64,000 nucleotides of DNA from a virus, in the UHGV virus genome UHGV-0211740. The stretch is one strand, 5' to 3'. A program made the translations under genes and the position numbers. Below the pieces are notes generated by a model. That model was not told the origin of the DNA. It was given only the letters and a program-made list of their open reading frames with translations, and did not search any database. Below are positions 2,162 to 17,068 of the stretch, one piece after another (the first letter of the stretch is position 1; each line of letters opens with the position of its first letter).

Positions 2162-2534
2162 CTCTGAACCCTTCGTGATCAGGCATAACAGAGAACCGGA
2201 TATCTACGATGCCTTCCCACGTTAGGCCATCAGCCTCAGGATCACCCTGGGATTGCAGTAGGGTGGCTTCAGATATGCGTGTGTTGGTCATGCTCCGCCC
2301 GTGAGTATTCCGGCAACAGCCATTATGGACGTAATGATCATCAGGATCACCACTAAAACATCGGACAATGTTTTCATTGTGCACTCCATATTCTCCAGAC
2401 TATGTGTGGATACTATCACGGGAGGAGGAATGTGTCAACAGGAACGTCGCGAGGGTTTGGTTAAAATCCGAGCGTATGGTGATTTGGGTCAAAACGGACG
2501 TGCGTTCTCGCTACGCTCGAAATAAAAAGTATAC

Positions 2535-2756
2535 TTAAGGCTTTTTGCGGTCCAGTATCTGCTTACGCTGGATAAAGTGCATAAATGTCTCAGCCCATGA
2601 GCAATTCTGATACTCTCGGTACTTGTGCATTGCTTGACGACTCACACCGTACTCTGCAGCAAATGTAGAGACACGTAGAAAATCTGGCAGATCATCATCT
2701 TCAAAATATACCGTACTGAGAGCAATATCGTTATCGTCGTATAGAACAACTTTCAT
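2535..2756 (-). CDS. small protein, possible HTH DNA-binding
   Basis: 73-aa ORF; segment AAEYGVSRQAM resembles a helix-turn-helix recognition helix. Confidence 0.3.
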   Translation of the reverse strand: MKVVLYDDNDIALSTVYFEDDDLPDFLRVSTFAAEYGVSRQAMHKYREYQNCSWAETFMHFIQRKQILDRKKP

Positions 2757-3218
2757 AAATGATACCTCAAGATGTGGTGGTTTAGGGAAACAGTTAAATT
2801 CTTTCTAAAACGCTCTGTGATGAGATTAACTATCTAAGGTATGCAATCGTGCATCAGATAAAGAAAAGGACGCCACAGAGCGTCCTAGGTGCCTTAAATT
2901 CTATATTTTGCTATACCCATGAAGGTTTGTCCAGGTTAGAGTAGCTAAAAGGTGTCAAAAGGTGACTGTCAAAATCTTTCAAACTCTCCAGGTCTTTTTC
3001 CTCATCCTGACACCATCTGTGCCTACATTTATTGTTGTAGTGCATGGAATGCATGGCGTTCTGCAACTTAACAGGCACAAGTGATTCAGGAGCAGATAAT
3101 ACAGTAGGGTATGCCAGAACTACCTCAAACAGTGGAAACACATCAAAACTGAAGTCTATTTCTGCTGAGGTGGCTGGCATGTATGAGTATTTAGCTGTCT
3201 TTGTAGACATAATTCACC

Positions 3219-3545
3219 TCACACAGGTTTGATAATACCTTCACCGAATAGCTCTTCGTATCTAATCTTATCCGGATCCCACTCCTGGATAATTTCGAAG
3301 ACAATATCCAACCCAGGAATAATCACTTCTCCAGTGTCAAGCTTGGCAAGAACAAAACCAGAAGGCTGAATGGTTTCCCAGTTGCGACGATTGGAATAGA
3401 AGACCTCGAAAATATCACCGACCTTGATCTGTTGATCAAGATGTTCAAGATTCTCTTTCATATAGACACAGCGTATTTTTCGTGCAGGCCATAGACCACC
3501 TGCATCACGTTCATTCAATTCTTTTACAGTAATCGGCACACCCAT
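3219..3545 (-). CDS. hypothetical protein
   Basis: 108-aa ORF, tightly packed with neighbours on minus strand. Confidence 0.45.
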   Translation of the reverse strand: MGVPITVKELNERDAGGLWPARKIRCVYMKENLEHLDQQIKVGDIFEVFYSNRRNWETIQPSGFVLAKLDTGEVIIPGLDIVFEIIQEWDPDKIRYEELFGEGIIKPV

Positions 3546-3565
3546 CTCAAATCTCCTTCATAGAT

Positions 3566-3596
3566 AGTAAAAAAGAGGGGCCCAAGCCCCCCTCTT
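3566..3596 (-). terminator. putative rho-independent terminator
   Basis: GC hairpin AGAGGGG..CCCCTCT followed on the minus strand by a T-run; sits between two minus-strand genes. Confidence 0.4.
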
Positions 3597-3601
3597 TGTC
3601 A

Positions 3602-3907
3602 TTATTCTACAGAGCGTTTGAACAGAATGTCTGCCTCAGACATGTGTTCAACCTCTTCTTCGATTTTAGCTCGACGTTTTTCAGCCTCGTAGCGAATATC
3701 GAACTCGGTAGCCACCAGAGATTTGATGAATTTAGGAGAATACAGGTGATCCTGCTTCTCAACAAGGATGATATCCTTGATAGCATCTTTCAGATCTTTA
3801 ATCTGAAGCTGAAGTTCCACCAGCTCTTCAATTGTTTTACGGAGGCGATCACGCTCTGCGATGTCAGAAGGAAGAGAGGTGAACAGTTCAACTTTAGATT
3901 TAGCCAT
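3602..3907 (-). CDS. hypothetical protein (coiled-coil rich)
   Basis: 101-aa ORF, charged helical composition. Confidence 0.45.
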   Translation of the reverse strand: MAKSKVELFTSLPSDIAERDRLRKTIEELVELQLQIKDLKDAIKDIILVEKQDHLYSPKFIKSLVATEFDIRYEAEKRRAKIEEEVEHMSEADILFKRSVE

Positions 3908-3935
3908 AGTAAGGGTCTCCTTATATTGTTTTAAA

Positions 3936-4253
3936 TTAACGTTCTACAAAAATACCGTTCAGTTCGATGACCAGGAATTTCTGGTCTTCGCTATCGTCAC
4001 GTGCCAGAACCTCACAGACGTAGCGGTCATCCCCATCATCATCACAGTCAAATACAAGACTAAGGACTTTATCATGATAAATCTTCGCCACTACTGCCTC
4101 GTAAGTATTGCCGATTGTGAATCCAAGATAGTCCCCGATGCATTTGACAACAACATGGTCGCCAGCATTTAAGTCAATCTTCGTCATTACTGCGCTCCTT
4201 GGGTAATAATATGGTATGTAAAACTTTAACCAGAGATGTGAATAACGCCCCAA
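3936..4253 (-). CDS. hypothetical protein
   Basis: 105-aa ORF. Confidence 0.45.
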   Translation of the reverse strand: MGRYSHLWLKFYIPYYYPRSAVMTKIDLNAGDHVVVKCIGDYLGFTIGNTYEAVVAKIYHDKVLSLVFDCDDDGDDRYVCEVLARDDSEDQKFLVIELNGIFVER

Positions 4254-4342
4254 AACACACCGATAGCGCTAAAACAGACAAGGTCATCATTAAAGCTTCA
4301 GTAAAATCGGTCATTCCTCACCTCTTGTTAGTCACTATACTA

Positions 4343-4606
4343 TCATTTATCTTTGCCGTCAAGAACTTTTTTAAATCTTTCAGGGATATCCCCAGTTCTC
4401 AGGTAGTTCATGACCTCCCAAGGTTCCCACTTAAACTTCTTGCAGAGCAGGGCGGCTGAGATTGTTTCCTTGCGAAAAGAAAGGATATTGATATCCCACT
4501 CCGAGAACCCCAGCTTCCGAAGAGTAGCTATAGAAATCCTCACAGCAACCCAGCAAGAAAAACATGCAACAAACGCTACTGCTACAACCCACATCAGGAT
4601 GTTCAT
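4343..4606 (-). CDS. putative membrane protein
   Basis: 87-aa ORF with hydrophobic N-terminal segment WVVAVAFVACFSCWVAV. Confidence 0.4.
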   Translation of the reverse strand: MNILMWVVAVAFVACFSCWVAVRISIATLRKLGFSEWDINILSFRKETISAALLCKKFKWEPWEVMNYLRTGDIPERFKKVLDGKDK

Positions 4607-4695
4607 ACAAGCACCTTATTGAAATACGAGACACAGTGCCAAGGTTGCTGACCAGCAAATAATTAACAAGGCGGTTGCAACCTTGGCAAGATTTA

Positions 4696-4983
4696 TCATA
4701 GTGTCTCTAGGATTTCATATCCTTCTGGTCGGAAGACAAGCCACTCCGCTGATCCGTTAGGGCGATATGCTTTATACAGAACAACCTGATCTCGGCACAT
4801 GCACATGGCTACATAGTTTTCATCCACACCTGCAGCCTGCATTGCATCTTCTTCTCCGGCAACAGCTTTGCTTACAACTTCCTTGGTAGGCAGGTGTGCG
4901 ATCAGCTCGTCACCATCATTAATTCCAAAATGGCGAAGTTCTCCGTTTGTATCTTTGATCTTAATCTTAACCAGATCTTTCAT
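4696..4983 (-). CDS. hypothetical protein
   Basis: 95-aa ORF. Confidence 0.4.
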   Translation of the reverse strand: MKDLVKIKIKDTNGELRHFGINDGDELIAHLPTKEVVSKAVAGEEDAMQAAGVDENYVAMCMCRDQVVLYKAYRPNGSAEWLVFRPEGYEILETL

Positions 4984-5312
4984 TAATCTTTCTCCAAGTT
5001 CAAAGGCCCTAAGATCTCATAGCCCAGATTTGAAGTTACCAGAGGATCTTCCGCATCTTTTGTATTGTACCACCCGTGGATAACCAGAGTTCCACTACGT
5101 TTCATGTCTAACTGAAACTGTTCTGCCATTTCCTCATCCATCTCTAAGATCTCCATCAGGTATTTGATGTTAGGAAGGTAGGCAGCTGTTACAGTCCCCT
5201 CTACCAGGCCTTCGGGCCAACCTACATCTGGATGACAAGTAGGAACTAAAGAGGTCAGTTTAATGGTGTATGCTTTTTCTGCACGGGCTTTCAGTAACGG
5301 ATCAATCTTCAT
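4983..5312 (-). CDS. hypothetical protein
   Basis: 109-aa ORF, start overlaps upstream stop (translational coupling). Confidence 0.4.
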   Translation of the reverse strand: MKIDPLLKARAEKAYTIKLTSLVPTCHPDVGWPEGLVEGTVTAAYLPNIKYLMEILEMDEEMAEQFQLDMKRSGTLVIHGWYNTKDAEDPLVTSNLGYEILGPLNLEKD

Positions 5313-5662
5313 TATTCGTCCTCCTCTTCGGTGCCTGCTTCCAGGAGCAGGTTAAGAATATCTTCTGCACAAGGTTCATAGAAAGCTTGGCCTTCATAAT
5401 CTACGACTTGGTAGTCATCTCCACGAATAATCAGTGGATCACTCTCAAAATTATCAAGACCTTTAACAACTACAACACGGTCGATTGCCATCATCGTAAG
5501 AACTTTATCTACATTTTCCTCTGCCACACCATACTGCAGCAGGATGTCTTTGGTAGGAGGAACAGCATCAACCACAACACCGTTACCAAAACCTTCCGGC
5601 AATTTAGCTAAAATATCTTCCGGAACAGCATTCATATCAAAACCTGTGATTTCTACTTTCAT
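5312..5662 (-). CDS. hypothetical acidic small protein (paralog family B)
   Basis: 116-aa ORF; MKVEITG N-terminus and acidic C-terminus shared with 5663..5923 and 7087..7356. Confidence 0.45.
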   Translation of the reverse strand: MKVEITGFDMNAVPEDILAKLPEGFGNGVVVDAVPPTKDILLQYGVAEENVDKVLTMMAIDRVVVVKGLDNFESDPLIIRGDDYQVVDYEGQAFYEPCAEDILNLLLEAGTEEEDE

Positions 5663-5923
5663 TTACAGCACCTCTTCGTTAACTACTTCATAAAAATGGC
5701 TTGGGATTGCAATGGCGTTCTCGCCTTCACCTAAGAACACTGTCCCACTAACAATCAACATTAGAAGAACGTCTGCGATACCTTCCTCGGGGACGTTGCC
5801 AAAACCTTTAATCAGCTCGTAGGTTGGAATATTTACCTCTAAGATGTCGCCATCTTTAGAGCGGAAATCAACACCGTCCTGAATCTCTGCCGTTTCAAGG
5901 TTTTTCAATTTAATCTTCATCAA
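5663..5923 (-). CDS. hypothetical small protein (paralog family B)
   Basis: 86-aa ORF; MKIKL start and C-terminal YEVVNEE motif. Confidence 0.45.
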   Translation of the reverse strand: MMKIKLKNLETAEIQDGVDFRSKDGDILEVNIPTYELIKGFGNVPEEGIADVLLMLIVSGTVFLGEGENAIAIPSHFYEVVNEEVL

Positions 5924-5999
5924 TCAGTCTCCTATCTTGTTAAGATGAAGGTATTATTGCACACAGGGTTGGTGTTGTCAACACCTGTGTGGCATAAAA

Positions 6000-6395
6000 T
6001 TACTGAAACAGTGCAGATAAATTACCCTCTGGTGGGAACTTATCTGCCAAGAACGGTGTTAGAACAGTGGCCTTCTGAATATCTGGGGTCCACTCGTTGT
6101 TCAGAACATCCCAGTAGTACGCAATGTTGCTGTGTGGGTGCCGCATTACGAACTTTTTCCCCTCGTAGTCAGTTGAAACCTCTACAGAAGAAATAACAAC
6201 AGAATCTTCAAGGGTTTCTTCGTAGAAAGATCCTCCCTCAAATTTCCAACGAGATGCAAGAGATCCTGCCTTAAACGCTGCAGATAGTGGACTGTCGGCA
6301 AGAACATACATTTCTTGCACTCTGTCACTGCGATCTTTGCTTCTTACGTTGTATACAGTATCTGAGCTATACTCAACACGGTATAGACTTACCAT
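6000..6395 (-). CDS. hypothetical protein
   Basis: 131-aa ORF. Confidence 0.45.
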   Translation of the reverse strand: MVSLYRVEYSSDTVYNVRSKDRSDRVQEMYVLADSPLSAAFKAGSLASRWKFEGGSFYEETLEDSVVISSVEVSTDYEGKKFVMRHPHSNIAYYWDVLNNEWTPDIQKATVLTPFLADKFPPEGNLSALFQ

Positions 6396-6754
6396 TACCG
6401 CACCTCCTCGATAACTTCCACATCTGAGCCTACCACAAATGCAAAAGGGCAGGTTTCCTTAAAGATATCCGGATCACCGCCAAGTTTGCTAACTATCTCT
6501 CCACCATTAATAAATACAAGCTCACCGATATTCATCAGATTGCTGAAATAGTATCCATAATGGTTAAAGAATGCGGCGGGGTCAGGAAGACTGGTAGCCT
6601 CAAGCTCTACATCAGTTGAGGTTACTTTCTTATCATAACCTCTCGCCTTTTGAGATGCAAGATCTGCAGAATCTTCAGGAGACCGGAGATGTATAGGAAT
6701 TGTTTCACCAATAAAACGTACTTTCATATTCTCACCCAACAACCATAGCTTCAA
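6395..6754 (-). CDS. hypothetical small protein (paralog family A)
   Basis: 119-aa ORF; internal MKVRFIGE start and C-terminal GSDVEVIEE motif. Confidence 0.45.
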   Translation of the reverse strand: MKLWLLGENMKVRFIGETIPIHLRSPEDSADLASQKARGYDKKVTSTDVELEATSLPDPAAFFNHYGYYFSNLMNIGELVFINGGEIVSKLGGDPDIFKETCPFAFVVGSDVEVIEEVR

Positions 6755-7052
6755 AAGGTGTCATAAACGAATAAACGGCATCATCATCTGCTTCAGGGAA
6801 TGCTCCCAAAGACTTTATATCTGAGCCTTTGACAAACACAAGGTTCTGATCAAAAGCCTCTTGAGGATCAATCCGATACATATCTCGTAGGGTATCGCTT
6901 ACCTCCTCATCAAGAGGTGAGTATGCTGTGCACGTTTTTCCGATCAAGCTTTGAGAATCGGGGTATCCCCCTGAAGTTTTAAAATAGACAATCATATGGT
7001 ATAACCTCTGGTAAGGGATGGGGACTCCTTTCCCACAAATAATTACAAACAT
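6732..7052 (-). CDS. hypothetical protein
   Basis: 106-aa ORF. Confidence 0.4.
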   Translation of the reverse strand: MFVIICGKGVPIPYQRLYHMIVYFKTSGGYPDSQSLIGKTCTAYSPLDEEVSDTLRDMYRIDPQEAFDQNLVFVKGSDIKSLGAFPEADDDAVYSFMTPFEAMVVG

Positions 7053-7086
7053 TTCCTATAGAGGGAGTATGCTAACCCAAGTAGTA

Positions 7087-7356
7087 TTACTCTTCTACAA
7101 CCTCATACACATCCGGAGTTACAATCAGCTCTTCTCCGTTACCCGGCGCAACAAACACCACCAAACCTTCAGGAGTGTGCTTTTTAGCCATCTCGATAAC
7201 ATCTTCTCGTAAAGCTGGCTCCATCAGATCAAAACCCTCACCTAGGGCATCACGAACAACCTTCATGTAGTCCACTGGTTGTGCTTCAACGATCATGCCT
7301 TCAACCAGTCCACAGTTTTTGTCTGCCAGCTCAGTTTGGAATAATTTAATTTTCAT
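7087..7356 (-). CDS. hypothetical small protein (paralog family B)
   Basis: 89-aa ORF; MKIKLF start, C-terminal YEVVEE. Confidence 0.45.
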   Translation of the reverse strand: MKIKLFQTELADKNCGLVEGMIVEAQPVDYMKVVRDALGEGFDLMEPALREDVIEMAKKHTPEGLVVFVAPGNGEELIVTPDVYEVVEE

Positions 7357-7493
7357 TTAGAGGTCTCCTCAATTATTTGATATTAATAGCCGTAACCTAA
7401 CACATTAACTACAACTGCGATTGCAAACATAATTTCAAAGCATGCAATCTCTACACTTGGAACTAATTTCTTAATCACACCCATTGTAGCACC

Positions 7494-7811
7494 TCATTCT
7501 CCAAAGTCAATCTTTACTTTGCCTTTCCCCTTACCTTTCTTTCCACCACATTTAGCCAACTGACGTGCTGCAACATCTACCATACGATCAGTTGCCTCGT
7601 AAGCATCACTGCCTTTGGCTTTGGCAATAATCTCCTTCCCAGAAATGTCAAAGATGAATGCCCTCACTTCTTGGTGGTCATTTTCAACTTTTACACTTAC
7701 ACGTGCATGATTCACAGAAGGATGTAGACGCTCCAGTTTTGACATTTTGTGGGAAATGAAAGACACCATACCTTCAGTGATTTCTACGTTGCCAGTGATT
7801 TCAATTTGCAT
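7494..7811 (-). CDS. hpf: ribosome hibernation promoting factor (HPF/RaiA family) homolog
   Basis: 105 aa; N-terminus MQIEITGNVEITE and the overall pattern align with bacterial HPF/YfiA, including the RQLxK motif near the C-terminus. Confidence 0.75.
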   Translation of the reverse strand: MQIEITGNVEITEGMVSFISHKMSKLERLHPSVNHARVSVKVENDHQEVRAFIFDISGKEIIAKAKGSDAYEATDRMVDVAARQLAKCGGKKGKGKGKVKIDFGE

Positions 7812-7894
7812 AATGTGCTCCTTTTAAAGAAGGGGGAACCAACCCCCTCTTTGAAAACAATGATACTAAATCTGAAGCGTTGTGTCAACAGTTT

Positions 7895-8185
7895 TTACAA
7901 CTTGTTGTCGATAGTTTTTAAAATATCTACTGCAAGATCTGCCATTTTACGAACATACTCTGCAAACTCAACAGGATCCTTGATCAATGAGTTCACAGGG
8001 TCATACCCTAAAGCGTTTAAAATGGCTACAGCATCCACGACCTTCTCATCATTTGCGAAGATCTCACCGTCAAACTTGTAGGTCCATTTTGAGTCAATCT
8101 TGGCAGGGAAGGATTGGTCAATGCTTATTGCACCATCCTTTTTAAACGCTCCGGTGTTATCAGTGTCCAGAACTAAATCCATCAT
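7895..8185 (-). CDS. hypothetical protein
   Basis: 96-aa ORF. Confidence 0.45.
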   Translation of the reverse strand: MMDLVLDTDNTGAFKKDGAISIDQSFPAKIDSKWTYKFDGEIFANDEKVVDAVAILNALGYDPVNSLIKDPVEFAEYVRKMADLAVDILKTIDNKL

Positions 8186-8202
8186 GTTGGTACCTCACTA
8201 TT

Positions 8203-8616
8203 TCAGTTTAGCTTTTCTTCAACAACCCCGTAGCTTGGAGCAGAGTCAAGAGCTTTCTGGCTTAAAAGTGGTGTAGCAGAATCTGCAAACGGTGTCCAAG
8301 TTTTTGTTCTGGCATTCCAGTAATGCTTCACTCTAGAATCTGGATGCACTATAACAAAAACTTTTTCACTTGTCAACACATTAATTTCTTCCACACCCTT
8401 GCTAACAATTTCCCCATCATAGCCTCCAGTCTGGTAACCTTCGTACCAGGTCCTTGCATAAGCATATCCAGCCTGCCAGCATGCAGCCTCTTTAGAGGTG
8501 GAGACTACGTAGAAATCTTTCTCAAATTCAGGGATACGCCCTTGCTTTACGCTCCAGGCTCCGCGAATTTTCATGGTGACTTTGAAAAGTTTGTTCTTCA
8601 CACTACCGCTCCACAA
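8203..8616 (-). CDS. hypothetical protein
   Basis: 137-aa ORF. Confidence 0.45.
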   Translation of the reverse strand: MWSGSVKNKLFKVTMKIRGAWSVKQGRIPEFEKDFYVVSTSKEAACWQAGYAYARTWYEGYQTGGYDGEIVSKGVEEINVLTSEKVFVIVHPDSRVKHYWNARTKTWTPFADSATPLLSQKALDSAPSYGVVEEKLN

Positions 8617-8893
8617 TCTCTGCGTCTGTTCCTACACCAAAGGCATAGTAAGACTCTTCCCCAAAGTAATACTCTGGTGCACCTGCCTTAATTAAGTCTG
8701 AGCCGTAGATAAATACCACACTGTGGGATACAGTGGATTGCAGTGTGGAGTGCAGCTGACGAATAGGATCATCCTCAGGCAACTCTTCGAAGTATACAGC
8801 AGGTACTACCTTTCCCTTCAGAAAGGATTGCCCCAAGTAGAGGTTAGAGTCAAGAATTTTAACCTTCACAGTCGTCCTCCACGATCTCAACAT
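8603..8893 (-). CDS. hypothetical small protein (paralog family A)
   Basis: KVKILDSNLYLGQ N-terminus and GSDLIKAGA..AEIVE motifs shared with 8859..9083 and 12420..12683. Confidence 0.45.
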   Translation of the reverse strand: MLRSWRTTVKVKILDSNLYLGQSFLKGKVVPAVYFEELPEDDPIRQLHSTLQSTVSHSVVFIYGSDLIKAGAPEYYFGEESYYAFGVGTDAEIVER

Positions 8894-9083
8894 CTTCCCC
8901 TAAGGCAAAGTTGTAAGTCCACTGACTGTCAAAGCATTCCTGAGATGCGCCAGCGGCAATAAGATCTGACCCTTTTATTTTTAAAAGGTCAGGGTAATCT
9001 TCATTAGGAACAGCGGTAAACACTTTTCCAACTAAAGGCTCTTGACCAATATAGAAGTTTGAATCTAAAACTTTAACTTTCAT
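8859..9083 (-). CDS. hypothetical small protein (paralog family A)
   Basis: 74-aa ORF; MKVKVLDSNFYIGQ, GSDLIAAGA, VEIVED. Confidence 0.45.
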   Translation of the reverse strand: MKVKVLDSNFYIGQEPLVGKVFTAVPNEDYPDLLKIKGSDLIAAGASQECFDSQWTYNFALGEDVEIVEDDCEG

Positions 9084-9367
9084 CAGCGGTCTCCATCGGG
9101 CGGCTGTGGAACGTAAACACTGTTACGAATCTCGTCAGCAGTGTAGTAACAAGTTTTCCCCTCTCTGTCTCTGGCAGCAATGTATTCAGCTATACCAATA
9201 AGTGCCATAGACTTGGTGGCGTATCTTTTAAGCTCGTTAGCTCCCCAGCAAAATCTCTGCCAAAACGGTATGAAACCGAATAGGTACACTTTCTGTTTCA
9301 CTATCCAATAAGTGCCTTTACAGATCACTTTAAACTCTGCAGCACTGTTGCTAACACCATTGCTCAT
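9083..9367 (-). CDS. hypothetical protein
   Basis: 94-aa ORF. Confidence 0.4.
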   Translation of the reverse strand: MSNGVSNSAAEFKVICKGTYWIVKQKVYLFGFIPFWQRFCWGANELKRYATKSMALIGIAEYIAARDREGKTCYYTADEIRNSVYVPQPPDGDR

Positions 9368-9379
9368 TATTTTCTCCTT

Positions 9380-9664
9380 CTATTTTTCTGAATTTGGCAA
9401 GTATTGCACATTGGCAGGAGGAACACCGGATAGCTCCCAAACAACCAGAGTGCTGTACCCTGGCACACTTCTAACATTTAAAAGAGTAGGGGCACCAACA
9501 CATTTAAACTTCCTTTTCCCAAATCCGTTCTCCATCATAACCCAGTATCCGGTATCCTGATCACCGGGAATTTGTGTTCCATCATTGTCCACCCAGCGGA
9601 CGGTCCATTTCGACACAGCAACAGCTCTATACTTAAACTTTTTAAACCACTCAAAGAGTTTCAT
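9380..9664 (-). CDS. hypothetical protein
   Basis: 94-aa ORF. Confidence 0.4.
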   Translation of the reverse strand: MKLFEWFKKFKYRAVAVSKWTVRWVDNDGTQIPGDQDTGYWVMMENGFGKRKFKCVGAPTLLNVRSVPGYSTLVVWELSGVPPANVQYLPNSEK

Positions 9665-9849
9665 AATTCAGCCTCACTTGGCAACTCTTCCACCTTAACA
9701 TGCCGAAAAGTGTTACCGTAATGGTTGATCCATGCCATCAGCTCACTTTCTTGCTCTTCCTCTGGGATGAACTCTCGAATGCTGACAAGTTTTAAGAAAA
9801 CCCAATCACAATCTGCACCCATTCTACCGGACAGACAGTAGTGCTTCAT
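9661..9849 (-). CDS. hypothetical protein
   Basis: 62-aa ORF overlapping upstream stop. Confidence 0.35.
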   Translation of the reverse strand: MKHYCLSGRMGADCDWVFLKLVSIREFIPEEEQESELMAWINHYGNTFRHVKVEELPSEAEL

Positions 9850-9867
9850 AGAACCCTCCCCACCAGT

Positions 9868-10068
9868 TTAAAATACTGCCTCTTTTAGCGATCCAAGTAG
9901 CAGCAGGCGTGAAATCTGATCCACATTCATGTAAGATTCAATCTCCTCTCCTTTGAAAGGCTCTCGACAAAACAGTACTGCATTTGGGTTTTCGCTACGC
10001 ACTATATAATACAGATCGTTCAAATCATTCTCATAGTATGTATTAAATTTAAGAATTTTGTCACTCAT
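9868..10068 (-). CDS. hypothetical protein
   Basis: 66-aa ORF. Confidence 0.35.
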   Translation of the reverse strand: MSDKILKFNTYYENDLNDLYYIVRSENPNAVLFCREPFKGEEIESYMNVDQISRLLLLGSLKEAVF

Positions 10069-10352
10069 TTTCTGGTCCTCTTCTTGGATTTTTGTGGAGA
10101 AACGCTTTCTGCAATACGAGACAAACGTTCTTCCGAAGCCTTGCCTATTCCAGGTTTTTTGAGGGGATTATCTTTACGACCGCAATCCAATTGGATATCG
10201 GACACCTCTCCCGCTTTGTAAGTCAATTCTAACAAAAGGTTGTCGTCCTTGTCAAATGTTTTTACGGTAAATTTTTTATCGTCTTCCTTAACCTCATACC
10301 GTGTTCCTGCAGTGTATAGCATAGTTCCATCAGCATAGGATATCCAGATCAT
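10065..10352 (-). CDS. hypothetical protein
   Basis: 95-aa ORF. Confidence 0.4.
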   Translation of the reverse strand: MIWISYADGTMLYTAGTRYEVKEDDKKFTVKTFDKDDNLLLELTYKAGEVSDIQLDCGRKDNPLKKPGIGKASEERLSRIAESVSPQKSKKRTRK

Positions 10353-10696
10353 TGGGCCTTCTCCTGTTGCAACAGCATTAATTCCTTGTTGGATATTTTT
10401 ACTGCAGTTTTTATTGTACCATCTTCACGGAACCACGACCAGAACTCCACGGTGTCGCCACTATCAAGCAAAGCATGCCCGTGATAAAAGTCTTTGTCTT
10501 TCGATAGTTTCTTATCTATATCTGCATCAACACATTCGTGATCCATAGCATTCTGTCTGAATGCATCGGTTATGCCAACACATGCCTTGTTCTCAAGGCT
10601 GGTATATCCTACATCTTTTAATTCAGTTTCCCAAGTCCAGTAGCCTATAAAAGCTACAACAGCTACCCACATTAATAATGTTTTAATCTTTGGCAT
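10349..10696 (-). CDS. putative secreted or membrane-anchored protein
   Basis: 115-aa ORF with N-terminal hydrophobic segment LLMWVAVVAFIGYWTW. Confidence 0.4.
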   Translation of the reverse strand: MPKIKTLLMWVAVVAFIGYWTWETELKDVGYTSLENKACVGITDAFRQNAMDHECVDADIDKKLSKDKDFYHGHALLDSGDTVEFWSWFREDGTIKTAVKISNKELMLLQQEKAQ

Positions 10697-10758
10697 TCTC
10701 TCTACCTCTTTCTTAGTTTATTTCACTATGGCACATCCTTTGTGCCATATTTCACCCA

Positions 10759-11220
10759 CTACTTAAATAGTAGTTCAAAATAGTGCAAAATTAGCAGAAG
10801 TTGAACTACACCCAGTGCAACGGCGAGTATGTTAATCTTAGAATCGAAAAACTTCTTAACTTTTACTCTAAAGGGTTCCTTAATATCCTTTACGATTCTA
10901 TTTATAGATGATCTCACATCCCTGATTGCCATCCTAAACATGGGAGAAGGATCTTCCTTCTCTGTAACGGAATCGAAAACATACTCTCTTCGGTCATAAG
11001 GACCGCCAGCTCTGCGTATTAACCTCTCCACAGAGACCTCGAACGACACACCTGTAACGTAATCGTCTATAACAAGTAATGACGGGTCTTCACCATCAAG
11101 AGGTATCAAAGTTATCTTCCCAGATTTTGTTGAAATCTCTCCTTTTTCAAGCAAGGTGTACCAATGCTCTCTACCAAGACTGTTGAGGCACGTTTTTACA
11201 TATTTAACAAACATCGTCAC
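10759..11220 (-). CDS. hypothetical protein with C-terminal transmembrane segment
   Basis: 153-aa ORF ending ILAVALGVVQLLLILHYF. Confidence 0.4.
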   Translation of the reverse strand: MTMFVKYVKTCLNSLGREHWYTLLEKGEISTKSGKITLIPLDGEDPSLLVIDDYVTGVSFEVSVERLIRRAGGPYDRREYVFDSVTEKEDPSPMFRMAIRDVRSSINRIVKDIKEPFRVKVKKFFDSKINILAVALGVVQLLLILHYFELLFK

Positions 11221-11420
11221 CCCTCATCGCACGTCTGATATAACCATTCTATAAAATCTTGATACCACTCTCCCTCTGAGCGCTCCGTAGGCCAATAATC
11301 CTCACCTTCTCTTGCATTAAAATCTGAGTATTCAACTTTCCACTCTTTTACCAGCTTGTGGAGAAGGTTTTCAGCCTGTTCTAAAGATTTATTTTCTGTC
11401 ATTACTGTCCCCTTTTTCAA
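11217..11420 (-). CDS. hypothetical protein
   Basis: 67-aa ORF. Confidence 0.35.
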   Translation of the reverse strand: MKKGTVMTENKSLEQAENLLHKLVKEWKVEYSDFNAREGEDYWPTERSEGEWYQDFIEWLYQTCDEG

Positions 11421-11622
11421 GATAACTGTACATCAGCGCCGCGCCACCTAAAATGGCTACCAGCAGTAATACCCCCGAGAGCATTTCAATAAACATGGCT
11501 TGAAACACTAGAAGGCCTCCTCTAATTTAACGCACCATTTTAAATACATGTTCTTTTCCCACAAAGGTGCCTGGCTAAGATCTGCGTAGAATGCAATCTC
11601 TTTAAGAACAGTATAAACAGTT

Positions 11623-11859
11623 TTAGGTGAGGTCTCCATTCCTACTCTCCTTTTTCTCCTTACGGAGATTCTTGTAGTAGTCAACCAGGCACATTATCAC
11701 AATGAAGACAACAACAGGCCAAAAAGGTGCAGCAGTAATGATGGTGATAAAATCATCAAACTTCACCCTTCGTGTAGACACGACGCATATACCTGTCAAG
11801 ATTACTGCTGTTATAACGGCTATTACTAGGTAACCCATCAGTACAGCATCTATACTCAT
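11623..11859 (-). CDS. small two-TM membrane protein (holin-like topology)
   Basis: 78 aa; two hydrophobic helices followed by a charged C-terminal tail. Confidence 0.4.
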   Translation of the reverse strand: MSIDAVLMGYLVIAVITAVILTGICVVSTRRVKFDDFITIITAAPFWPVVVFIVIMCLVDYYKNLRKEKKESRNGDLT

Positions 11860-11889
11860 TGGATCCTCCTTTACAGGTTAAATTGTATA

Positions 11890-12423
11890 CTACAGATTGT
11901 TGCTGAGGGTGTCAAGAAAATTATCCCGTTCTTTCTCAGAGTTTTCATGGGTGTAGCTGAAAAACATATCGAGAATAACCTTATTGATATATTCCAGCTC
12001 CTCTGTATTCAGATACTTATCAGGATCTACAATGACTTCCCAAATATCGTACAGACCGCACTCATGATATCCCCAACGCCACTCAATTGTTAAACTGAGC
12101 GGCAAAGCTTTACCGTCACAAACAACCTTCCATCTACAGATGTTGGTATCTGGACGCACCTGTGCACGGTATACCTGTACAAAATCCAATTTGAATTTGA
12201 GGTACTCGTCATACAATTTAAGTACAAAGCTCTCGATTTGTGGAGACACTTTTGCAGCAAACTGTGCGTATTTGTACTTGCACTGGATGATCTTTCTGCG
12301 TTTTGCAGTTAAATTTTTTGCAGACAGTTGTTCTTCAGTGTACCTCCACCTACGGTCAACAAACGCAACAGGGTCTTTGTCCCCATAGAGGTCTTCCCAG
12401 TTAATCAGAAGCATACCTGTCAC
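11890..12423 (-). CDS. hypothetical protein
   Basis: 177-aa ORF. Confidence 0.45.
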   Translation of the reverse strand: MTGMLLINWEDLYGDKDPVAFVDRRWRYTEEQLSAKNLTAKRRKIIQCKYKYAQFAAKVSPQIESFVLKLYDEYLKFKLDFVQVYRAQVRPDTNICRWKVVCDGKALPLSLTIEWRWGYHECGLYDIWEVIVDPDKYLNTEELEYINKVILDMFFSYTHENSEKERDNFLDTLSNNL

Positions 12424-12683
12424 TCCTCCACAACTTCAAGGCCTTTACCGCCCCTCTCTGGAAGATTGCCGAGGGATAGGTAGTAAGTATAGTCTGGTGA
12501 GATTCTACCCGCTTGTGCCCCTGCAGCGATCAAATCTTTTCCAGTGATCATAACAACGTTTTTGTTTGCCGTCAACCGTTTTGCTACTACAATTTTACCG
12601 ACGCAATCGATCAGTGATGGATACCCTAAATCTGTAAGAAATTTAACTTTCATGCTACCTCCTACTTCTACCGTCCCTGGCAA
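12420..12683 (-). CDS. hypothetical small protein (paralog family A)
   Basis: Internal MKVKFL start and ITGKDLIAAGA..LEVVEE motifs. Confidence 0.45.
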   Translation of the reverse strand: MPGTVEVGGSMKVKFLTDLGYPSLIDCVGKIVVAKRLTANKNVVMITGKDLIAAGAQAGRISPDYTYYLSLGNLPERGGKGLEVVEE

Positions 12684-12692
12684 GATAAATTA

Positions 12693-13091
12693 TTACTGAA
12701 CAGAACGCGGAGCTGGGAAGGATAACTCTTCTAAAGAGAAGATTTCATTTCCTACCACCCAAGTTGCTGGATCATCTGGATCAACAGGTTGGATAATCAT
12801 TACCTCATCAACCTTGCACACACGTTTCCCACCTATGGTAGCGTCAGCCACTAACATACGCGGCTCTTCAGAAATGCACAGGTAGCCACCTCGGCCCACT
12901 GTTCCTTCTACAGGATCCTGCCCTTTGACAACGATGAATACCTTTTCTCCTGTGGCGATATTACTTTGCACACGGACAGTTTGACCAACTTTAGAGGTAC
13001 CTACCTTGGTGGCTTCAAACATTAAATCCCGAATTACTGTTGCATAGTTGCCGGAAACTTTCTTACCTTCTTTGGTGATCTCAATCTTCAT
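12693..13091 (-). CDS. hypothetical protein
   Basis: 132-aa ORF. Confidence 0.45.
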   Translation of the reverse strand: MKIEITKEGKKVSGNYATVIRDLMFEATKVGTSKVGQTVRVQSNIATGEKVFIVVKGQDPVEGTVGRGGYLCISEEPRMLVADATIGGKRVCKVDEVMIIQPVDPDDPATWVVGNEIFSLEELSFPAPRSVQ

Positions 13092-13360
13092 AATTTAGGC
13101 TCCTTAAATGAATCTATGTAGTCAATTAAATCCCAAGCATCGCGATGGGCTGTCAGAGGATATACTTCTCCGAGAGGGATCATAGCGGCAAGTCTATCAA
13201 AAACCCAGTCTGGACGCAACATTTTATGGTGATATTCCCACTCACCTTCTACAGACTTTTTCTGAGTGATCAGGATCTCTGTGTAGTGTTTAGCCTGTCT
13301 TGAGTAGATTGAAAATGACTTGTACATAAATGGCCCCTCTTGTTGAAAACAAGAATACAT
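13088..13360 (-). CDS. hypothetical protein
   Basis: 90-aa ORF. Confidence 0.4.
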   Translation of the reverse strand: MYSCFQQEGPFMYKSFSIYSRQAKHYTEILITQKKSVEGEWEYHHKMLRPDWVFDRLAAMIPLGEVYPLTAHRDAWDLIDYIDSFKEPKL

Positions 13361-13362
13361 AA

Positions 13363-13677
13363 CTACCAGGTCACTGTCAAGTAGGCAACTGTGTTATTTT
13401 TCTCTGGCGATATGCCAACAACATCCACTTGCAGACCCCCTGCCCTTAAATCTCCGACGATGTGTGGGAAGTAATCAGAGAGATGTGATGGAAGATTTAT
13501 CGAAAATCCGCACCCCAGAAAGCCTGCTAACGCTTTATTTTGTATCTCCCCTACAATCGCATCGTAAATAGCGTTAAGCTCGTCAGGAAGCGTCACAGGG
13601 CGTTTTAGCGCTAACCGGTGTAATTTGTCCTTAGCACTCATTTTCATTTCAGATCTACCTCTGGTGGTGCCAACCAC
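13363..13677 (-). CDS. hypothetical protein
   Basis: 104-aa ORF. Confidence 0.4.
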   Translation of the reverse strand: MVGTTRGRSEMKMSAKDKLHRLALKRPVTLPDELNAIYDAIVGEIQNKALAGFLGCGFSINLPSHLSDYFPHIVGDLRAGGLQVDVVGISPEKNNTVAYLTVTW

Positions 13678-14177
13678 ATAAATGGCGGCAAATCTAAGCG
13701 GTTTTTCTTATCCCACACAAAATATGCATATGCTTGCCCGTCAGTTCTGCCATTGGACTGGAATGATGGGCGCTTAGATATTGTAATCACTGTGGTAGGG
13801 GCATTTTCAAGCCACCACTCAAAACGTGCTTTACTTTCCAGGAAGTTGAGACGCAAAAGCATAATAACTACGTCAGCATCTTTCAACGCCTTTTCTACAA
13901 ACTCACGGGCCAGGCTGTAGGGAGGGTTGGTTATAATGCAGTCAACATGGTTGTATTCTGTATTCAAGTAGTCCACACCTTCTTGAATCTCTCCCCATGC
14001 AGATCCTAACGGCATACGGGAGTAGAATACCCCGTTAACACTGTTTCGGCACGGCTCCAGATAAGTCCAGTTCTCCGGGAAATCAATTAAGTTATATAGG
14101 CCTTCTGCACACCAATCTGGTGTAACATATTCATCATAAGCATTACGTTGTTCGTCAGGTTTTCTAGCGCAAGTCAT
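13644..14177 (-). CDS. phage-type DNA N6-adenine methyltransferase (small Dam-like)
   Basis: 177 aa with catalytic motif IV ITNPPY; size and motif fit the small phage Dam family. Confidence 0.65.
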   Translation of the reverse strand: MTCARKPDEQRNAYDEYVTPDWCAEGLYNLIDFPENWTYLEPCRNSVNGVFYSRMPLGSAWGEIQEGVDYLNTEYNHVDCIITNPPYSLAREFVEKALKDADVVIMLLRLNFLESKARFEWWLENAPTTVITISKRPSFQSNGRTDGQAYAYFVWDKKNRLDLPPFMWLAPPEVDLK

Positions 14178-14228
14178 GCAAATCTCCAGATCATAAAAGC
14201 CCTCCGAAGAGGGCTTTAAGATTAATAT

Positions 14229-15275
14229 TTAAGCTTCTTCGACAATTCCTGCACCCAGGATTTTTTCATTAAGCTCTTTTGCGGTTTTAATAATATTATC
14301 CACCAGACGCTTACGGGTCTTGTCTTTCACCTGAACCTCTTCGCCACCGTTCAGAGTAGTCTTCAATTGAGACAGAATATCCTGAAGTTCAACGACAGAG
14401 AATCGCTGCAGATCTTCTGAGGTAATCTCGCCGAGAGCGATCCGGACGGTCTCACCACTTTCCATCTGCAGATTCAGGAACACGGTGTGAACATCATCTT
14501 TCACACCATTTGCTTTTGCAGACTCGACAGCATGAACCAGTTCGTCCAGGGAGGTGCACTGGTGAATCTCTGGCAGACCTGCTTCACCTAGTACCCCTTC
14601 ATCACCTTTTGCCAGAAGCTTTTTCGGTTTCTGCCCGTTCTGGATACGCTGAATGTTTTCATCGTCCAGAATGATAGCTCCAGTTCTAGATGCCAGCTCC
14701 TCTCCGTCCAACCATACTTCTCCACCAGCTGTGATGGAGGCGATCTCATCTTCTGTCAGCACTCCACCGTAGTATTTTTCGATCAGACGTTCGAAACGTT
14801 TTTTCCAGTAGCTGACCTGAGTATTCATGTTCACACCGTTGCCATAAGTGCCACCTTGGTAGTAGTGGAACATAAATTCAGTATCTGGAGCCACAGTGCG
14901 TTCTTTGCAACCTAGCCATAAGATTGTTCCAGCAGAGCAGCACATCCCTTCAGCATGTACAACAACGCTTGCCTGAGACTCGCGGAATGCCTGCAGATAT
15001 GCCATTGCAATGTGCACGCAACCACCAGGGCTATTGATGATCACCCGAATGCTTTCTTCCGGCTGAGCCATACGGATCGTCTGCAGACGAGACATATGGT
15101 CTTGTAGGTCTTCCAAGTCGTCGATATAAAGAACGTGGTCAACAACAGGTGTTGGGTAGCTGTATGTTTCCATAATACCACCCGGCATACCAAACATTTT
15201 ATTACTCATCGGTTCGAAGCCGTTCTGTTTTTCTTTCATGCCGTGTACCATGGTGCTGCGAGGTGTTAAATTCAT
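14229..15275 (-). CDS. ClpP-like serine protease with C-terminal helical extension (possible prohead protease-scaffold fusion)
   Basis: INSPGG and MCCSAGT serine motif plus MFHYY histidine region match the ClpP/S14 fold; about 150 aa helical C-terminal tail. Confidence 0.7.
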   Translation of the reverse strand: MNLTPRSTMVHGMKEKQNGFEPMSNKMFGMPGGIMETYSYPTPVVDHVLYIDDLEDLQDHMSRLQTIRMAQPEESIRVIINSPGGCVHIAMAYLQAFRESQASVVVHAEGMCCSAGTILWLGCKERTVAPDTEFMFHYYQGGTYGNGVNMNTQVSYWKKRFERLIEKYYGGVLTEDEIASITAGGEVWLDGEELASRTGAIILDDENIQRIQNGQKPKKLLAKGDEGVLGEAGLPEIHQCTSLDELVHAVESAKANGVKDDVHTVFLNLQMESGETVRIALGEITSEDLQRFSVVELQDILSQLKTTLNGGEEVQVKDKTRKRLVDNIIKTAKELNEKILGAGIVEEA

Positions 15276-15336
15276 GTGAGGTCCTTAATGTTGGAAAATT
15301 AAAAGCGATTTATTTAAACCTGATTCTCATTTGCCT

Positions 15337-15648
15337 TTATTTGGCAATTACCATGGAATACTTGCAATTGTCAGAAGCATCACAGGTCAACGATTGCCAG
15401 TCTACCACATACCACGTGTCATTGTCAACAATTACTTTATCACCTGTTCTGTAAAAGGTGTTGCTTTCAATAACACGAGACTCAGTGAAGAATCGGTGTC
15501 TTCGCTCACGTAGTAGAGCCAAGTTGATTATATTACCACCGCTGTCCTTAATCCACACATTCTTGTATCCTTTATTTGCCAAAATTGTCTCGCCGTTATA
15601 GACAAACAGGCAGTAGATTTTATTCAATCTCTCTTGTATCGTAGCCAT
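15337..15648 (-). CDS. hypothetical protein
   Basis: 103-aa ORF. Confidence 0.4.
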   Translation of the reverse strand: MATIQERLNKIYCLFVYNGETILANKGYKNVWIKDSGGNIINLALLRERRHRFFTESRVIESNTFYRTGDKVIVDNDTWYVVDWQSLTCDASDNCKYSMVIAK

Positions 15649-15749
15649 ACTGTTCTTCTCCTCGTTTTGTCAGGCAATAATACCTAAAGCTTGTCTGTTT
15701 GTCAACAAGTGTTTTAGATATTCAAGGGTGGAATAACCACCCTTATATG

Positions 15750-16538: not shown

Positions 16539-16576
16539 GGTGGGACTCCTTTCAGATTGAGATGTGTCTGGAACTT

Positions 16577-16927: not shown

Positions 16928-17068
16928 TGTTGTACCCCCTCTTCATCCTCATGATGTTTCTTTTCACGCTTGTGTTTTTTCTTAAGCTCAAGCGCAATCT
17001 CTTTTTTGTACGCCTTCTTCAAGGCCTTTTTAGCCATTTGGCACCTCCTCTGCTTTCATTTTACGATA

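What the first reader, a model, noticed from the sequence alone, without database searches (positions are those of the whole stretch)
5312..12683. Two paralogous families of small acidic proteins in the early block
Family A (6395..6754, 8603..8893, 8859..9083, 12420..12683) shares an MKVK(V/I/F)LD start, a GSDLI(A/K)AGA core and a VEIVE-type C-terminus. Family B (5312..5662, 5663..5923, 7087..7356) shares MK(I/V)(K/E)L starts and YEVVEE-type ends. Repeated diversification of tiny proteins in an early region is typical of host-takeover or anti-defence gene sets.
Basis: seen in the sequence. Interest (0 to 1): 0.45.

Follow-up and report, generated by a model that had tools for sequence, protein, structure and literature searches.

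The report
Ten small SH3-like phage paralogs
An rV5-like E. coli phage carries two real families of five tiny, mostly acidic proteins each, both predicted to fold as SH3-like beta-barrels; they are conserved and under selection, but their targets and function are unknown.

Summary
The window is an rV5-like coliphage (genus Vequintavirus).

- **Family A** is significant by BLASTP and by profile comparison. It has a fifth member at 6732-6995.
- **Family B** is invisible to pairwise BLAST. Leave-one-out profile comparison supports it at 91-96% probability, while the best non-member reaches 27% or less. It has two extra members, at 4696-4983 and 4983-5312.
- **A third paralog pair, C** (6000-6395 and 8203-8574), follows each A-A pair, so a three-gene module was probably duplicated.

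AlphaFold models of one A member and one B member (pLDDT 90 and 88) are both five-stranded SH3-like barrels.

All ten genes:
- keep their positions in three diverged lineages;
- are under purifying selection (omega 0.04-0.27);
- are present in about 119 of 122 related genomes;
- lie on a strand with many sigma-70-like promoter matches.

Family A also occurs in T4-like phages and lambdoid prophages. Family B was found only in this clade.

No conserved catalytic residues, Pfam match or characterised relative were found. The most likely role is non-enzymatic binding of host or phage partners. The anti-defence reading is untested, and the genes' invariance across the genus weighs somewhat against it.

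The parts
8859..9083 (-). A3, family A member, 74 aa (rV5 gp135). This sequence was used for the family A structure model.
8603..8869 (-). A2, family A member, 88 aa, GTG start (rV5 gp136). It has a 14-22 residue insertion between strands 2 and 3.
   Evidence: The start is set by orthologues P0001/P0002, which begin MKVKILD.
12420..12653 (-). A4, family A member, 77 aa (rV5 gp122). It is the only basic member, pI 8.8.
   Evidence: phrog_5009 E=2.9e-33. hhalign 98.2% to A3. pI.
6395..6727 (-). A1, divergent family A member, 110 aa (rV5 gp143). It has a roughly 45-residue insertion and a degenerate core motif (GGEIVSKLGG).
   Evidence: BLASTP E=4.6e-4 to A2. hhalign 95.6% to A2. 96.6% to the rest-of-A profile. 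99.2% to the broad family A profile.
6732..6995 (-). A5, fifth family A member, 87 aa (rV5 gp142).
   Evidence: phrog_5009 E=1.6e-4. hhalign 77-80% to A2/A3/A4. 97.1% to the rest-of-A profile. Its Shigella phage CM1 orthologue matches the A3 model at TM 0.81.
5312..5662 (-). B1, family B member, 116 aa (rV5 gp146). It has a 30-residue acidic C-terminal tail and a net charge of -20.
   Evidence: hhalign 94% to B2 and to B5. 96.3% to the rest-of-B profile. Charge.
5663..5920 (-). B2, family B member, 85 aa (rV5 gp145). This sequence was used for the family B structure model.
7087..7356 (-). B3, family B member, 89 aa (rV5 gp141). It is the most divergent B and sits apart from the B tandem.
   Evidence: Only 18-20% pairwise by hhalign, but 92.6%, E=4.6e-7 and 82 columns against the profile of the other four B members.
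4696..4983 (-). B4, family B member, 95 aa (rV5 gp148/149).
   Evidence: 91.2%, E=1e-6 and 75 columns against the rest-of-B profile.
4983..5312 (-). B5, family B member, 109 aa (rV5 gp147).
   Evidence: hhalign 93.7% to B1. 95.2% to the rest-of-B profile.
6000..6395 (-). C1, 131 aa, third paralog family. It lies directly downstream of the A5-A1 pair.
   Evidence: BLASTP E=1.5e-9 to C2. hhalign 97.5%. Both C1 and C2 are in phrog_7379.
8203..8574 (-). C2, 123 aa, paralog of C1. It lies directly downstream of the A3-A2 pair. In two diverged lineages this slot holds an unrelated gene.
5953..5981 (-). Sigma-70-like promoter (TTGACA-17-AATAAT, with TG) in the gap upstream of the B2-B1-B5-B4 tandem.
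   Evidence: 11 of 12 matches. The same spot is annotated as promoter P150 in the rV5 record. This is a prediction only.
7483..7510 (-). Sigma-70-like promoter (TTGACT-16-TACAAT) upstream of a 33-codon ORF and B3.
   Evidence: 10 of 12 matches. This is a prediction only.

Best explanation
The segment from 4.7 to 12.7 kb of this rV5-like phage encodes ten small proteins (74-116 aa) that belong to two old paralogous families of five members each. Both families are predicted to fold as a five-stranded SH3-like small beta-barrel. The N-terminal MK(V/I)K(L/V/I/F) motif is strand 1, and the C-terminal (V/Y)E(V/I)VE motif is strand 5.

Family A has a short helix after strand 3, which is the G-x-(D/E)-L-I-x-x-G-A core. 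Its strand 2-3 loop varies in length. Family B carries two helices inserted at that same strand 2-3 position.

The proteins have no conserved catalytic residues and no signal peptide or membrane segment. Nine of the ten are acidic. I infer that they are non-enzymatic, stoichiometric binding modules. They would be made from host-type promoters together with the replication and nucleotide-metabolism block, and each paralog would engage a different host (or phage) macromolecule through its variable loops.

Shown here: the paralogy, the predicted fold, the conserved synteny, the purifying selection and the distribution. Inferred: the binding role, the timing of expression, and that the targets are host factors or defence proteins.

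The confidence of 0.45 is for the whole statement. Taken separately, I put the identity part (two real families with an SH3-like fold) at about 0.9 and the inferred binder mechanism at about 0.35.
For: - **Paralogy:** BLASTP, hhalign all-vs-all with 24 unrelated neighbouring genes as controls, and leave-one-out profiles.
- **Real, functional genes:** omega is 0.04-0.27 against phage AlexBoehm. All ten are syntenic in three lineages and present in about 119 of 122 related genomes.
- **No enzyme signature:** the nearly invariant residues are Gly, Tyr, Leu and hydrophobic core positions. There is no Pfam hit.
- **Variable loops on a conserved core:** in family A the strand 2-3 loop is the most variable segment (3.08 bits) and takes 0-45 residue insertions. 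Strand 1 (1.13 bits) and the helix motif (1.47 bits) are the most conserved.
- **Host-type promoters:** 13 strong sigma-70-like sites lie on the coding strand and none on the other. Shuffles give 2.05 +/- 1.5. Two of the sites coincide with promoters annotated in rV5.
- **Genomic setting of family A elsewhere:** it sits in blocks of small unannotated ORFs, both in a T4-like phage and between Q and the holin in lambdoid prophages.
Against: - No binding partner, phenotype or expression data exist.
- No characterised homologue was found by sequence or by fold.
- Only one member of each family was modelled, from shallow alignments of 27-32 sequences.
- The genes are core to the genus rather than variable, and gene-wide omega shows no positive selection. 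That fits a housekeeping role in infection at least as well as an arms-race role.
- Acidity is not distinctive here, because many neighbouring unrelated genes are equally acidic.
Confidence: 0.45

Rival explanations
1. A and B are not two families. They are two branches of one ten-member superfamily that arose from a single ancestral SH3-like gene. B-type helices and A2/A5/A1-type insertions would then be alternative elaborations of the same strand 2-3 loop.
For: - A and B are each other's best non-self hits in the leave-one-out tests.
- Merged A against merged B gives 39.7% probability, E=3e-4, over the N-terminal 35 columns.
- Both have the same first-strand and last-strand motifs, and their genes are interleaved.
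- Insertions in A1, A2 and A5 fall at the topological position of the B helices.
Against: - The sequence link never reaches significance. It drops to 27.7% when the broader A profile is used.
- It covers only about 31-35 columns.
- The SH3-like barrel is one of the commonest small folds, so convergence or independent acquisition is possible.
- The two models could not be superposed directly with the tools available.
Confidence: 0.4
2. They are accessory factors for the phage's own gene expression. They would be KOW- or ribosomal-protein-like barrels that act on the ribosome or RNA polymerase, functionally linked to the phage HPF/RaiA homologue encoded in the middle of the cluster.
For: - The HPF homologue at 7494-7811 (PF02482, E=2.4e-13) sits between the two A-A-C modules. 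It keeps that position in all lineages.
- The genes are core and under purifying selection.
Against: - There is no Pfam KOW or ribosomal-protein hit at E<=1.
- Acidic proteins are poor candidates for direct RNA binding.
- The KOW and ribosomal-protein hits score no better than generic SH3 domains.
- Family A homologues in prophages and T4-like phages are not next to HPF.
Confidence: 0.12
3. They are standalone SH3 cell-wall-binding or lysis-accessory proteins, like the DUF7244 SH3 protein encoded next to the lysis cassette of T1-like phages.
For: - SH3-like fold.
- The prophage homologue of family A lies in the Q-to-holin interval.
- A standalone SH3 protein has been proposed as a lysis-module component in Drexlerviridae (PMC13164509).
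- One BFVD hit is a DUF7244 protein (rank 30).
Against: - None of the ten has a signal peptide or membrane segment (sequences).
- There is no Pfam hit to DUF7244 or any SH3-clan family at E<=1.
- The DUF7244 structural match is weak (E=0.18, TMq 0.52).
- In this phage the genes lie among early-type small ORFs, not next to lysis genes.
- In the prophages at least three, and up to about 15, other genes separate the homologue from the holin.
Confidence: 0.05
4. The shared motifs are compositional coincidence among short, acidic, beta-rich ORFs, or the ORFs are decaying duplicates without function.
For: - Family B members show no significant pairwise BLAST hits and are split over five PHROGs.
- Acidic small ORFs are common in the region.
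Against: - In the leave-one-out profile tests each member stands far above 24 control genes of similar size and composition.
- The alignments are full length (71-83 columns), whereas chance hits cover 7-31 columns.
- The AF2 models are confident.
- Omega is 0.04-0.27.
- Synteny is conserved over lineages with saturated dS.
Confidence: 0.03

Closest known systems
PHROG families phrog_5009 (with phrog_13920 and phrog_13661), all 'unknown function'
   Same: A2, A3 and A4 match phrog_5009 at E 1e-29 to 1e-38. A5 matches it weakly (E=1.6e-4). So the paralogy of three A members is already implicit in that database.
   Different: PHROGs gives no fold or function. It splits A1 and A5 into their own families and splits family B over five unrelated-looking families (12155, 12359, 11868, 12794, 12457). 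The five-plus-five grouping and the common SH3-like fold are not recorded there.
SH3-like small beta-barrel fold (SH3 domains, Spt5/NusG KOW, PsaE, retroviral integrase C-terminal domain)
   Different: There is no sequence membership in any Pfam SH3-clan or KOW family. The canonical ALYDY and WW peptide-binding residues of eukaryotic SH3 domains are absent from the sequences. Family A has a helix directly after strand 3, and family B has a two-helix insertion.
DUF7244 standalone SH3 protein of the T1-like (Drexlerviridae) lysis module (PMC13164509)
   Same: It is a small standalone SH3-like protein of phages of Gram-negative hosts, of unknown role, found by structure-based annotation. The prophage homologue of family A also lies upstream of a lysis cassette.
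   Different: No Pfam DUF7244 hit, and only a weak structural match. Here there are ten copies in a replication-side block of small ORFs, not one copy next to the holin.
Clusters of small, fast-diverging accessory genes in plastic regions of large virulent phages (for example T4-type hyperplastic regions), as reviewed for phage small proteins (PMC11323111)
   Same: Densely packed ORFs under 120 codons behind host-type promoters, with no database function. Family A also sits in such a block of Krischvirus Phi1, where three adjacent ORFs hit the A profile.
   Different: The genes here are not variable accessory genes. They are present in essentially every genome of the genus and keep their order in three diverged lineages.

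Membership tests
phrog_5009 (phage protein family of unknown function) | Significant match to the PHROG profile HMM over most of its length | tested here: met
   A2 scores 2.8e-29, A3 2.6e-38 and A4 2.9e-33, all full length. A5 is marginal at 1.6e-4. A1 has no hit at E<=0.01 and is linked only through BLASTP and hhalign.
SH3-like small beta-barrel fold | Five antiparallel strands forming a partly open barrel, superposable on solved SH3, KOW or PsaE domains | tested here: met
Canonical SH3 / KOW domain families (Pfam SH3 clan, PF00467) | Sequence match to a curated family model above its threshold | tested here: not met
   Ten proteins scanned against Pfam-A at E<=1 gave no SH3-clan or KOW hit. 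Ten distant family A members also gave none.
DUF7244 (standalone SH3 of the Drexlerviridae lysis module) | Pfam DUF7244 match and a position adjacent to the holin/endolysin | tested here: not met
   No Pfam hit. The structural match to a DUF7244 protein has E=0.18 and TMq 0.52. No lysis genes lie next to the cluster in the window.
HPF / RaiA / S30AE ('sigma 54 modulation factor', the GenBank label of B3 orthologues) | Match to PF02482 | tested here: not met
   B3 (7087-7356) has no Pfam hit at E<=1, and B3 vs HPF is not among the top 45 of 561 hhalign pairs. The neighbouring gene 7494-7811 does match PF02482 at 2.4e-13. The label on B3 in several records is therefore unsupported.
Anti-defence / host-takeover proteins | Homology to an experimentally characterised inhibitor, or a demonstrated inhibition or toxicity phenotype | not testable with these tools
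   No library of anti-defence proteins is available here. No characterised relative was found in Pfam, PHROGs, the PDB or BFVD. No relevant paper was found.
Anti-defence / host-takeover proteins | Early expression from host-RNA-polymerase promoters | tested here: inconclusive
   There are 13 strong sigma-70-like sites on the coding strand, against 2.05 +/- 1.5 in shuffles. Two coincide with promoters predicted in rV5. No transcript data were found.
Anti-defence / host-takeover proteins | Variable presence among close relatives (accessory-island behaviour) | tested here: not met
   A3 is found in 119 related records, B1 in 119 and B3 in 118, out of 122. All ten are syntenic in three diverged lineages. 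The only variation seen is an A3::A2 fusion and replacement of the C2 slot.

The most novel reading that the evidence does not exclude
The ten genes are one diversified binder repertoire built on a single SH3-like scaffold. Each paralog would use its variable strand 2-3 loop or helical insert to neutralise a different host factor or defence protein. Recombination at the conserved core (as in the natural A3::A2 fusion, and in a possible prophage/phage chimera) would generate new specificities. That would be a modular, scaffold-based counter-defence system maintained as a core feature of a phage genus.
Probability: 0.15. Interest if true: 0.7.

Novelty: new member of a known kind. Interest (0 to 1): 0.35.

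Why it matters
About 40% of the genes between 4.7 and 12.7 kb of a widely used group of therapeutic and biocontrol coliphages are hypothetical proteins that reduce to two or three families on one simple predicted fold.

This turns about a dozen unknown ORFs into a small, testable set. One scaffold can be solved once, and its variable loops can be mutated. The whole families can be deleted in the BASEL Vequintavirus phages.

Family A also gives a handle on an uncurated domain, with no Pfam family, that is shared by virulent myoviruses, T4-like phages and lambdoid prophages of enterobacteria.

The work also corrects a propagated mis-annotation: B3 orthologues are labelled 'sigma 54 modulation factor'. 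If the proteins prove to be host-factor or defence binders, they would be a compact example of paralog expansion on a binding scaffold in a phage.

Tried and rejected
- **Pairwise BLASTP for family B** gave nothing significant. Ortholog-group profiles were needed.
- **Pfam** on all ten proteins and on ten distant family A members gave no family.
- **PDB sequence search with both family profiles** gave one marginal, probably spurious hit for A (3liu_A, E=0.005) and none for B.
- **Linking A to B by sequence** stayed at 28-40% probability over about 31-35 N-terminal columns, even with a broader A profile. I therefore keep them as two families with a common fold, not one proven superfamily.
- **Searching for family B outside the clade** found only rV5-like contigs. 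I tried two profile searches of 5.8 billion proteins and two tblastn searches of 50,697 phage records at E<=1.
- **The gene in the C2 slot of the diverged lineages** shows no similarity to C, A or B, so it is a replacement and not a diverged C2.
- **Virion association:** the main text of the rV5 proteome paper names none of these genes, and a search of its supplements for six of them under the guessed labels gp127-gp151 (rV5 ORF numbers) found no occurrence.
- **Literature searches** for rV5 early genes, paralogs or anti-defence functions found nothing that describes these families.
- **Direct superposition of the two AF2 models** was not possible, because coordinates are not exposed to the scripting tool.

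Full report
**Identity of the window.** An 8-kb stretch around the finding matches 122 phage records at 80-95% nucleotide identity. Nearly all are rV5-like E. coli myoviruses of the genus Vequintavirus; the best is OX460980 at 94%. The genes from about 2.5 to 40 kb run on the minus strand. In rV5 numbering the genes of interest are:

| Gene here | rV5 gene |
|---|---|
| A4 | gp122 |
| A3 | gp135 |
| A2 | gp136 |
| C2 | gp137 |
| HPF homologue | gp139 |
| B3 | gp141 |
| A5 | gp142 |
| A1 | gp143 |
| C1 | gp144 |
| B2 | gp145 |
| B1 | gp146 |
| B5 | gp147 |
| B4 | gp148/149 |

All are annotated as hypothetical proteins except the HPF homologue.

**Checking the observation.** Four were given as the longest possible ORF. 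Orthologues and the family N-terminus put the true starts at 6727, 8869 (GTG), 12653 and 5920.

An all-vs-all BLASTP of the 155 minus-strand ORFs of 35 aa or more in the first 40 kb confirms family A directly:
- A2 vs A3, E=5e-15;
- A3 vs A4, E=6e-7;
- A1 vs A2, E=4.6e-4.

A further ORF at 6732-7052 (true gene 6732-6995) hits only A members, weakly. A2, A3 and A4 all fall in phrog_5009, and the extra ORF matches that profile at E=1.6e-4. The same BLASTP run revealed an unreported paralog pair, 6000-6395 and 8203-8616 (E=1.5e-9). Both belong to phrog_7379.

Family B gave no significant pairwise hit, and each member has its own PHROG.

**Profile test with controls.** I collected orthologues of 34 genes of the region from several sources:
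- two annotated relatives;
- two diverged uncultured lineages, which share 30-87% protein identity with the window;
- the protein-database hits.

I then ran hhalign on all 561 pairs.
- All A-A pairs, including A5, rank among the 20 best of the 561 pairs, and 8 of the 10 reach 77-99.6%.
- C1-C2 reaches 97.5%.
- B1-B2 and B1-B5 reach 94%.
Unrelated pairs align over 7-31 columns.

In leave-one-out tests every omitted B member is the top hit of the profile built from the other four. Probabilities are 91-96%, E values run from 1e-6 to 1e-9, and 71-83 columns align. The best non-member reaches 27% or less. Omitted A members score 96.6-99.4%.

An HMM scan of every ORF of 35 aa or more on both strands of the whole 64-kb window finds exactly five A, five B and two C genes. 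The families are therefore real, and each has five members in this phage.

**Fold.**
- The AlphaFold2 model of A3, made with a 32-sequence family alignment, has pLDDT 90.2 and pTM 0.78. It has strands at 2-5, 21-26, 33-37, 56-61 and 65-69, and a short helix at 38-43.
- The model of B2, made with a 27-sequence alignment, has pLDDT 87.9 and pTM 0.74. Its strands are at 2-5, 26-28, 61-63, 70-72 and 77-79, with helices at 34-38 and 45-58 inserted between strands 2 and 3.

MKVK-L is strand 1, GSDLIAAGA is the end of strand 3 plus the helix, and VEIVE/YEVVEE is strand 5. The insertions of A1, A2 and A5 fall at the same strand 2-3 position as the B helices.

**Are A and B one family?** By sequence they are each other's best non-self hits. 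The merged A and B profiles align only over about 31-35 N-terminal columns, at 28-40% probability. A common origin is plausible but not shown.

**Distribution.**
- **Family B** was found only on rV5-like contigs. I searched 5.8 billion proteins with two different profiles, and 50,697 phage records at E<=1.
- **Family A** is wider but sparse. An exhaustive HMM search of 1.84 billion cluster representatives gives 41 clusters at E<=1e-3. They share the consensus MKVKLLNDGGY-G...vGKvv-A...I-G-ELI-AGA..F...Y-F-lG-E-EivEE. A few proteins have two or three tandem copies.

Relatives of family A occur in:
- T4-like Krischvirus phages, where three adjacent ORFs of Phi1 hit the profile, inside a block of unannotated small ORFs;
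- Moonvirus and several siphoviruses;
- lambdoid E. coli prophages and phage MagusPhagus, in the interval between the Q antiterminator and the holin.

Foldseek against BFVD finds the same fold in many uncharacterised small proteins of enterobacterial phages. None of these relatives has a Pfam family or a described function.

**Evolution.**
- All ten genes keep their positions in three lineages whose synonymous sites are saturated. The duplications are therefore old.
- Against phage AlexBoehm, omega is 0.04-0.27 for all ten. These are functional coding genes under purifying selection.
- Between lineages, family B is among the fastest-diverging sets (30-53% identity). Some neighbouring genes keep 77-92%.
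- The order A-A-C occurs twice, as A3-A2-C2 and A5-A1-C1. This suggests duplication of a three-gene module.
- In the diverged lineages the C2 slot holds an unrelated gene.
- Some phages carry a single A3::A2 fusion gene, joined within the conserved core motif and followed directly by C2. This shows unequal recombination between the tandem paralogs. It also shows that the two halves are interchangeable.

**Context and expression.** The coding strand between 2 and 17 kb carries 13 sigma-70-like sites with at least 10 of 12 consensus matches. There are none on the other strand, and dinucleotide shuffles give 2.05 +/- 1.5, with a maximum of 7. Sites lie in the gaps upstream of B2 (5953-5981) and of the HPF homologue (7860-7888). 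These coincide with promoters P150 and P144 predicted in the rV5 record.

The rV5 genome paper places these genes in the transcription unit that also holds the replication and nucleotide-metabolism genes. It does not mention paralogous families (PMC3606486). Early expression is therefore plausible but not shown. The paper's main text names none of these genes among the virion proteins, and a search of its supplements under the guessed labels gp127-gp151 found no occurrence.

**Mechanism.** The nearly invariant positions are Gly, Tyr, Leu and hydrophobic core residues, with no conserved His, Cys, Ser or Lys pattern. None of the proteins has a signal peptide or membrane segment (sequences). Nine of the ten are acidic, and A4 is basic. 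In family A the strand 2-3 loop is the most variable segment in both sequence and length, while strand 1 and the helix motif are the most conserved.

The best-supported reading is that these are non-enzymatic binding modules on an SH3-like scaffold, each with its own partner. Whether the partners are defence proteins, general host factors or phage components cannot be decided here. The invariance of the genes across the genus and the lack of gene-wide positive selection fit a core infection role at least as well as an arms-race role.

Two alternative roles were considered:
- A link to translation is suggested only by the HPF homologue in the middle of the cluster and by KOW and ribosomal-protein fold hits.
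- A lysis-accessory role like that proposed for DUF7244 of T1-like phages (PMC13164509) is unlikely. The proteins are cytoplasmic, do not match DUF7244 and are not next to lysis genes in this phage.

**Verdict.** Chance is excluded, and a common SH3-like fold is predicted with good confidence. The functional interpretation remains open. This is a tidy and useful reduction of a block of hypothetical genes, but not a new kind of system.

Noticed in passing
window 7494-7811 (-), promoter-like site 7860-7888: A phage-encoded ribosome hibernation factor (HPF/RaiA/S30AE) homologue (PF02482, E=2.4e-13) sits in the middle of the paralog cluster behind a near-consensus sigma-70-like promoter. It keeps this position in all lineages examined.
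   Followed up: partly
window 6000-6395 and 8203-8574 (-): A third paralog pair, C1 and C2 (BLASTP E=1.5e-9, both phrog_7379). Each lies directly downstream of an A-A pair, so a three-gene A-A-C module appears to have been duplicated. The C2 slot holds an unrelated 96-106 aa gene in two diverged lineages (L003 9004-9324, L010 8692-8982).
   Followed up: partly
L016 3001-3213 (also L017); proteins P0017 and P0018: A natural A3::A2 fusion gene of 70 aa, joined inside the conserved GADLIAAGA core. It replaces the two separate genes on a 133-kb phage contig. This indicates unequal recombination between tandem paralogs.
   Followed up: yes
L018 and L019 210-428; protein P0026: A gene in the A3 slot whose N-terminal half resembles the lambdoid-prophage type of family A (P0033) and whose C-terminal half is A3. 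It is seen only on short metagenome contigs, one with coverage 0.56. It may be prophage-phage recombination or an assembly chimera.
   Followed up: no
L007-L009 and L015 (about 5001-5228); L014 3084-4261: Family A homologues lie between the Q antiterminator and the holin in lambdoid E. coli prophages and in phage MagusPhagus. Three adjacent ORFs of T4-like phage Phi1 (ORF073, ORF074, ORF076) also hit the family A profile, so tandem copies occur in an unrelated phage group as well.
   Followed up: partly
window 8603-10068 and 12420-12653: Synonymous divergence from phage AlexBoehm is 1.0 to saturated for A2, g9083, g9380, g9868 and A4. It is 0.14-0.62 for the other genes compared. This suggests mosaic allele exchange in these segments.
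   Followed up: no
window 7087-7356 (B3) and its orthologues in GenBank records: B3 orthologues are annotated 'sigma 54 modulation factor' in many records (for example MK883718 and MN850642). B3 has no PF02482 match at E<=1, so the label seems to have spread from the neighbouring HPF gene.
   Followed up: yes
search results: Eighteen records named 'Campylobacter phage' (MG0656xx) are 89-96% identical to these E. coli rV5-like phages over the region. The host label looks doubtful.
   Followed up: no
L003 11389-11685, L010 11092-11388, L012 12881-13177: The diverged lineages carry an extra 98-aa gene between C1 and B2 that is absent from the window. The precomputed Pfam label is PF27050 (Phage_P22_Y8K6). 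My own Pfam scan at E<=0.1 found nothing, and it matches phrog_1273 at 6.6e-17.
   Followed up: partly
L020 9526-9796 (rV5 gp148/gp149), equivalent to window 4696-4983: In the rV5 reference sequence the B4 orthologue carries two single-base insertions and is annotated as two overlapping short ORFs. These are either sequencing errors in the 2008 record or a real disruption.
   Followed up: partly
window 2000-17000, minus strand: Thirteen sigma-70-like sites with at least 10 of 12 matches lie on the coding strand and none on the other. Shuffles give 2.05 +/- 1.5. Several lie inside genes (for example 8348-8376 in C2 and 12547-12575 in A4).
   Followed up: partly
window 3572-3597: A GC-rich 9-bp-stem hairpin (AAAGAGGGG...CCCCTCTTT). 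On the minus (coding) strand it is followed directly by a run of six T's, as in an intrinsic terminator; the plus-strand tail is only T-rich. It lies between the genes at 3219-3545 and 3602-3907. rV5 annotates a rho-independent terminator at the equivalent place.
   Followed up: no
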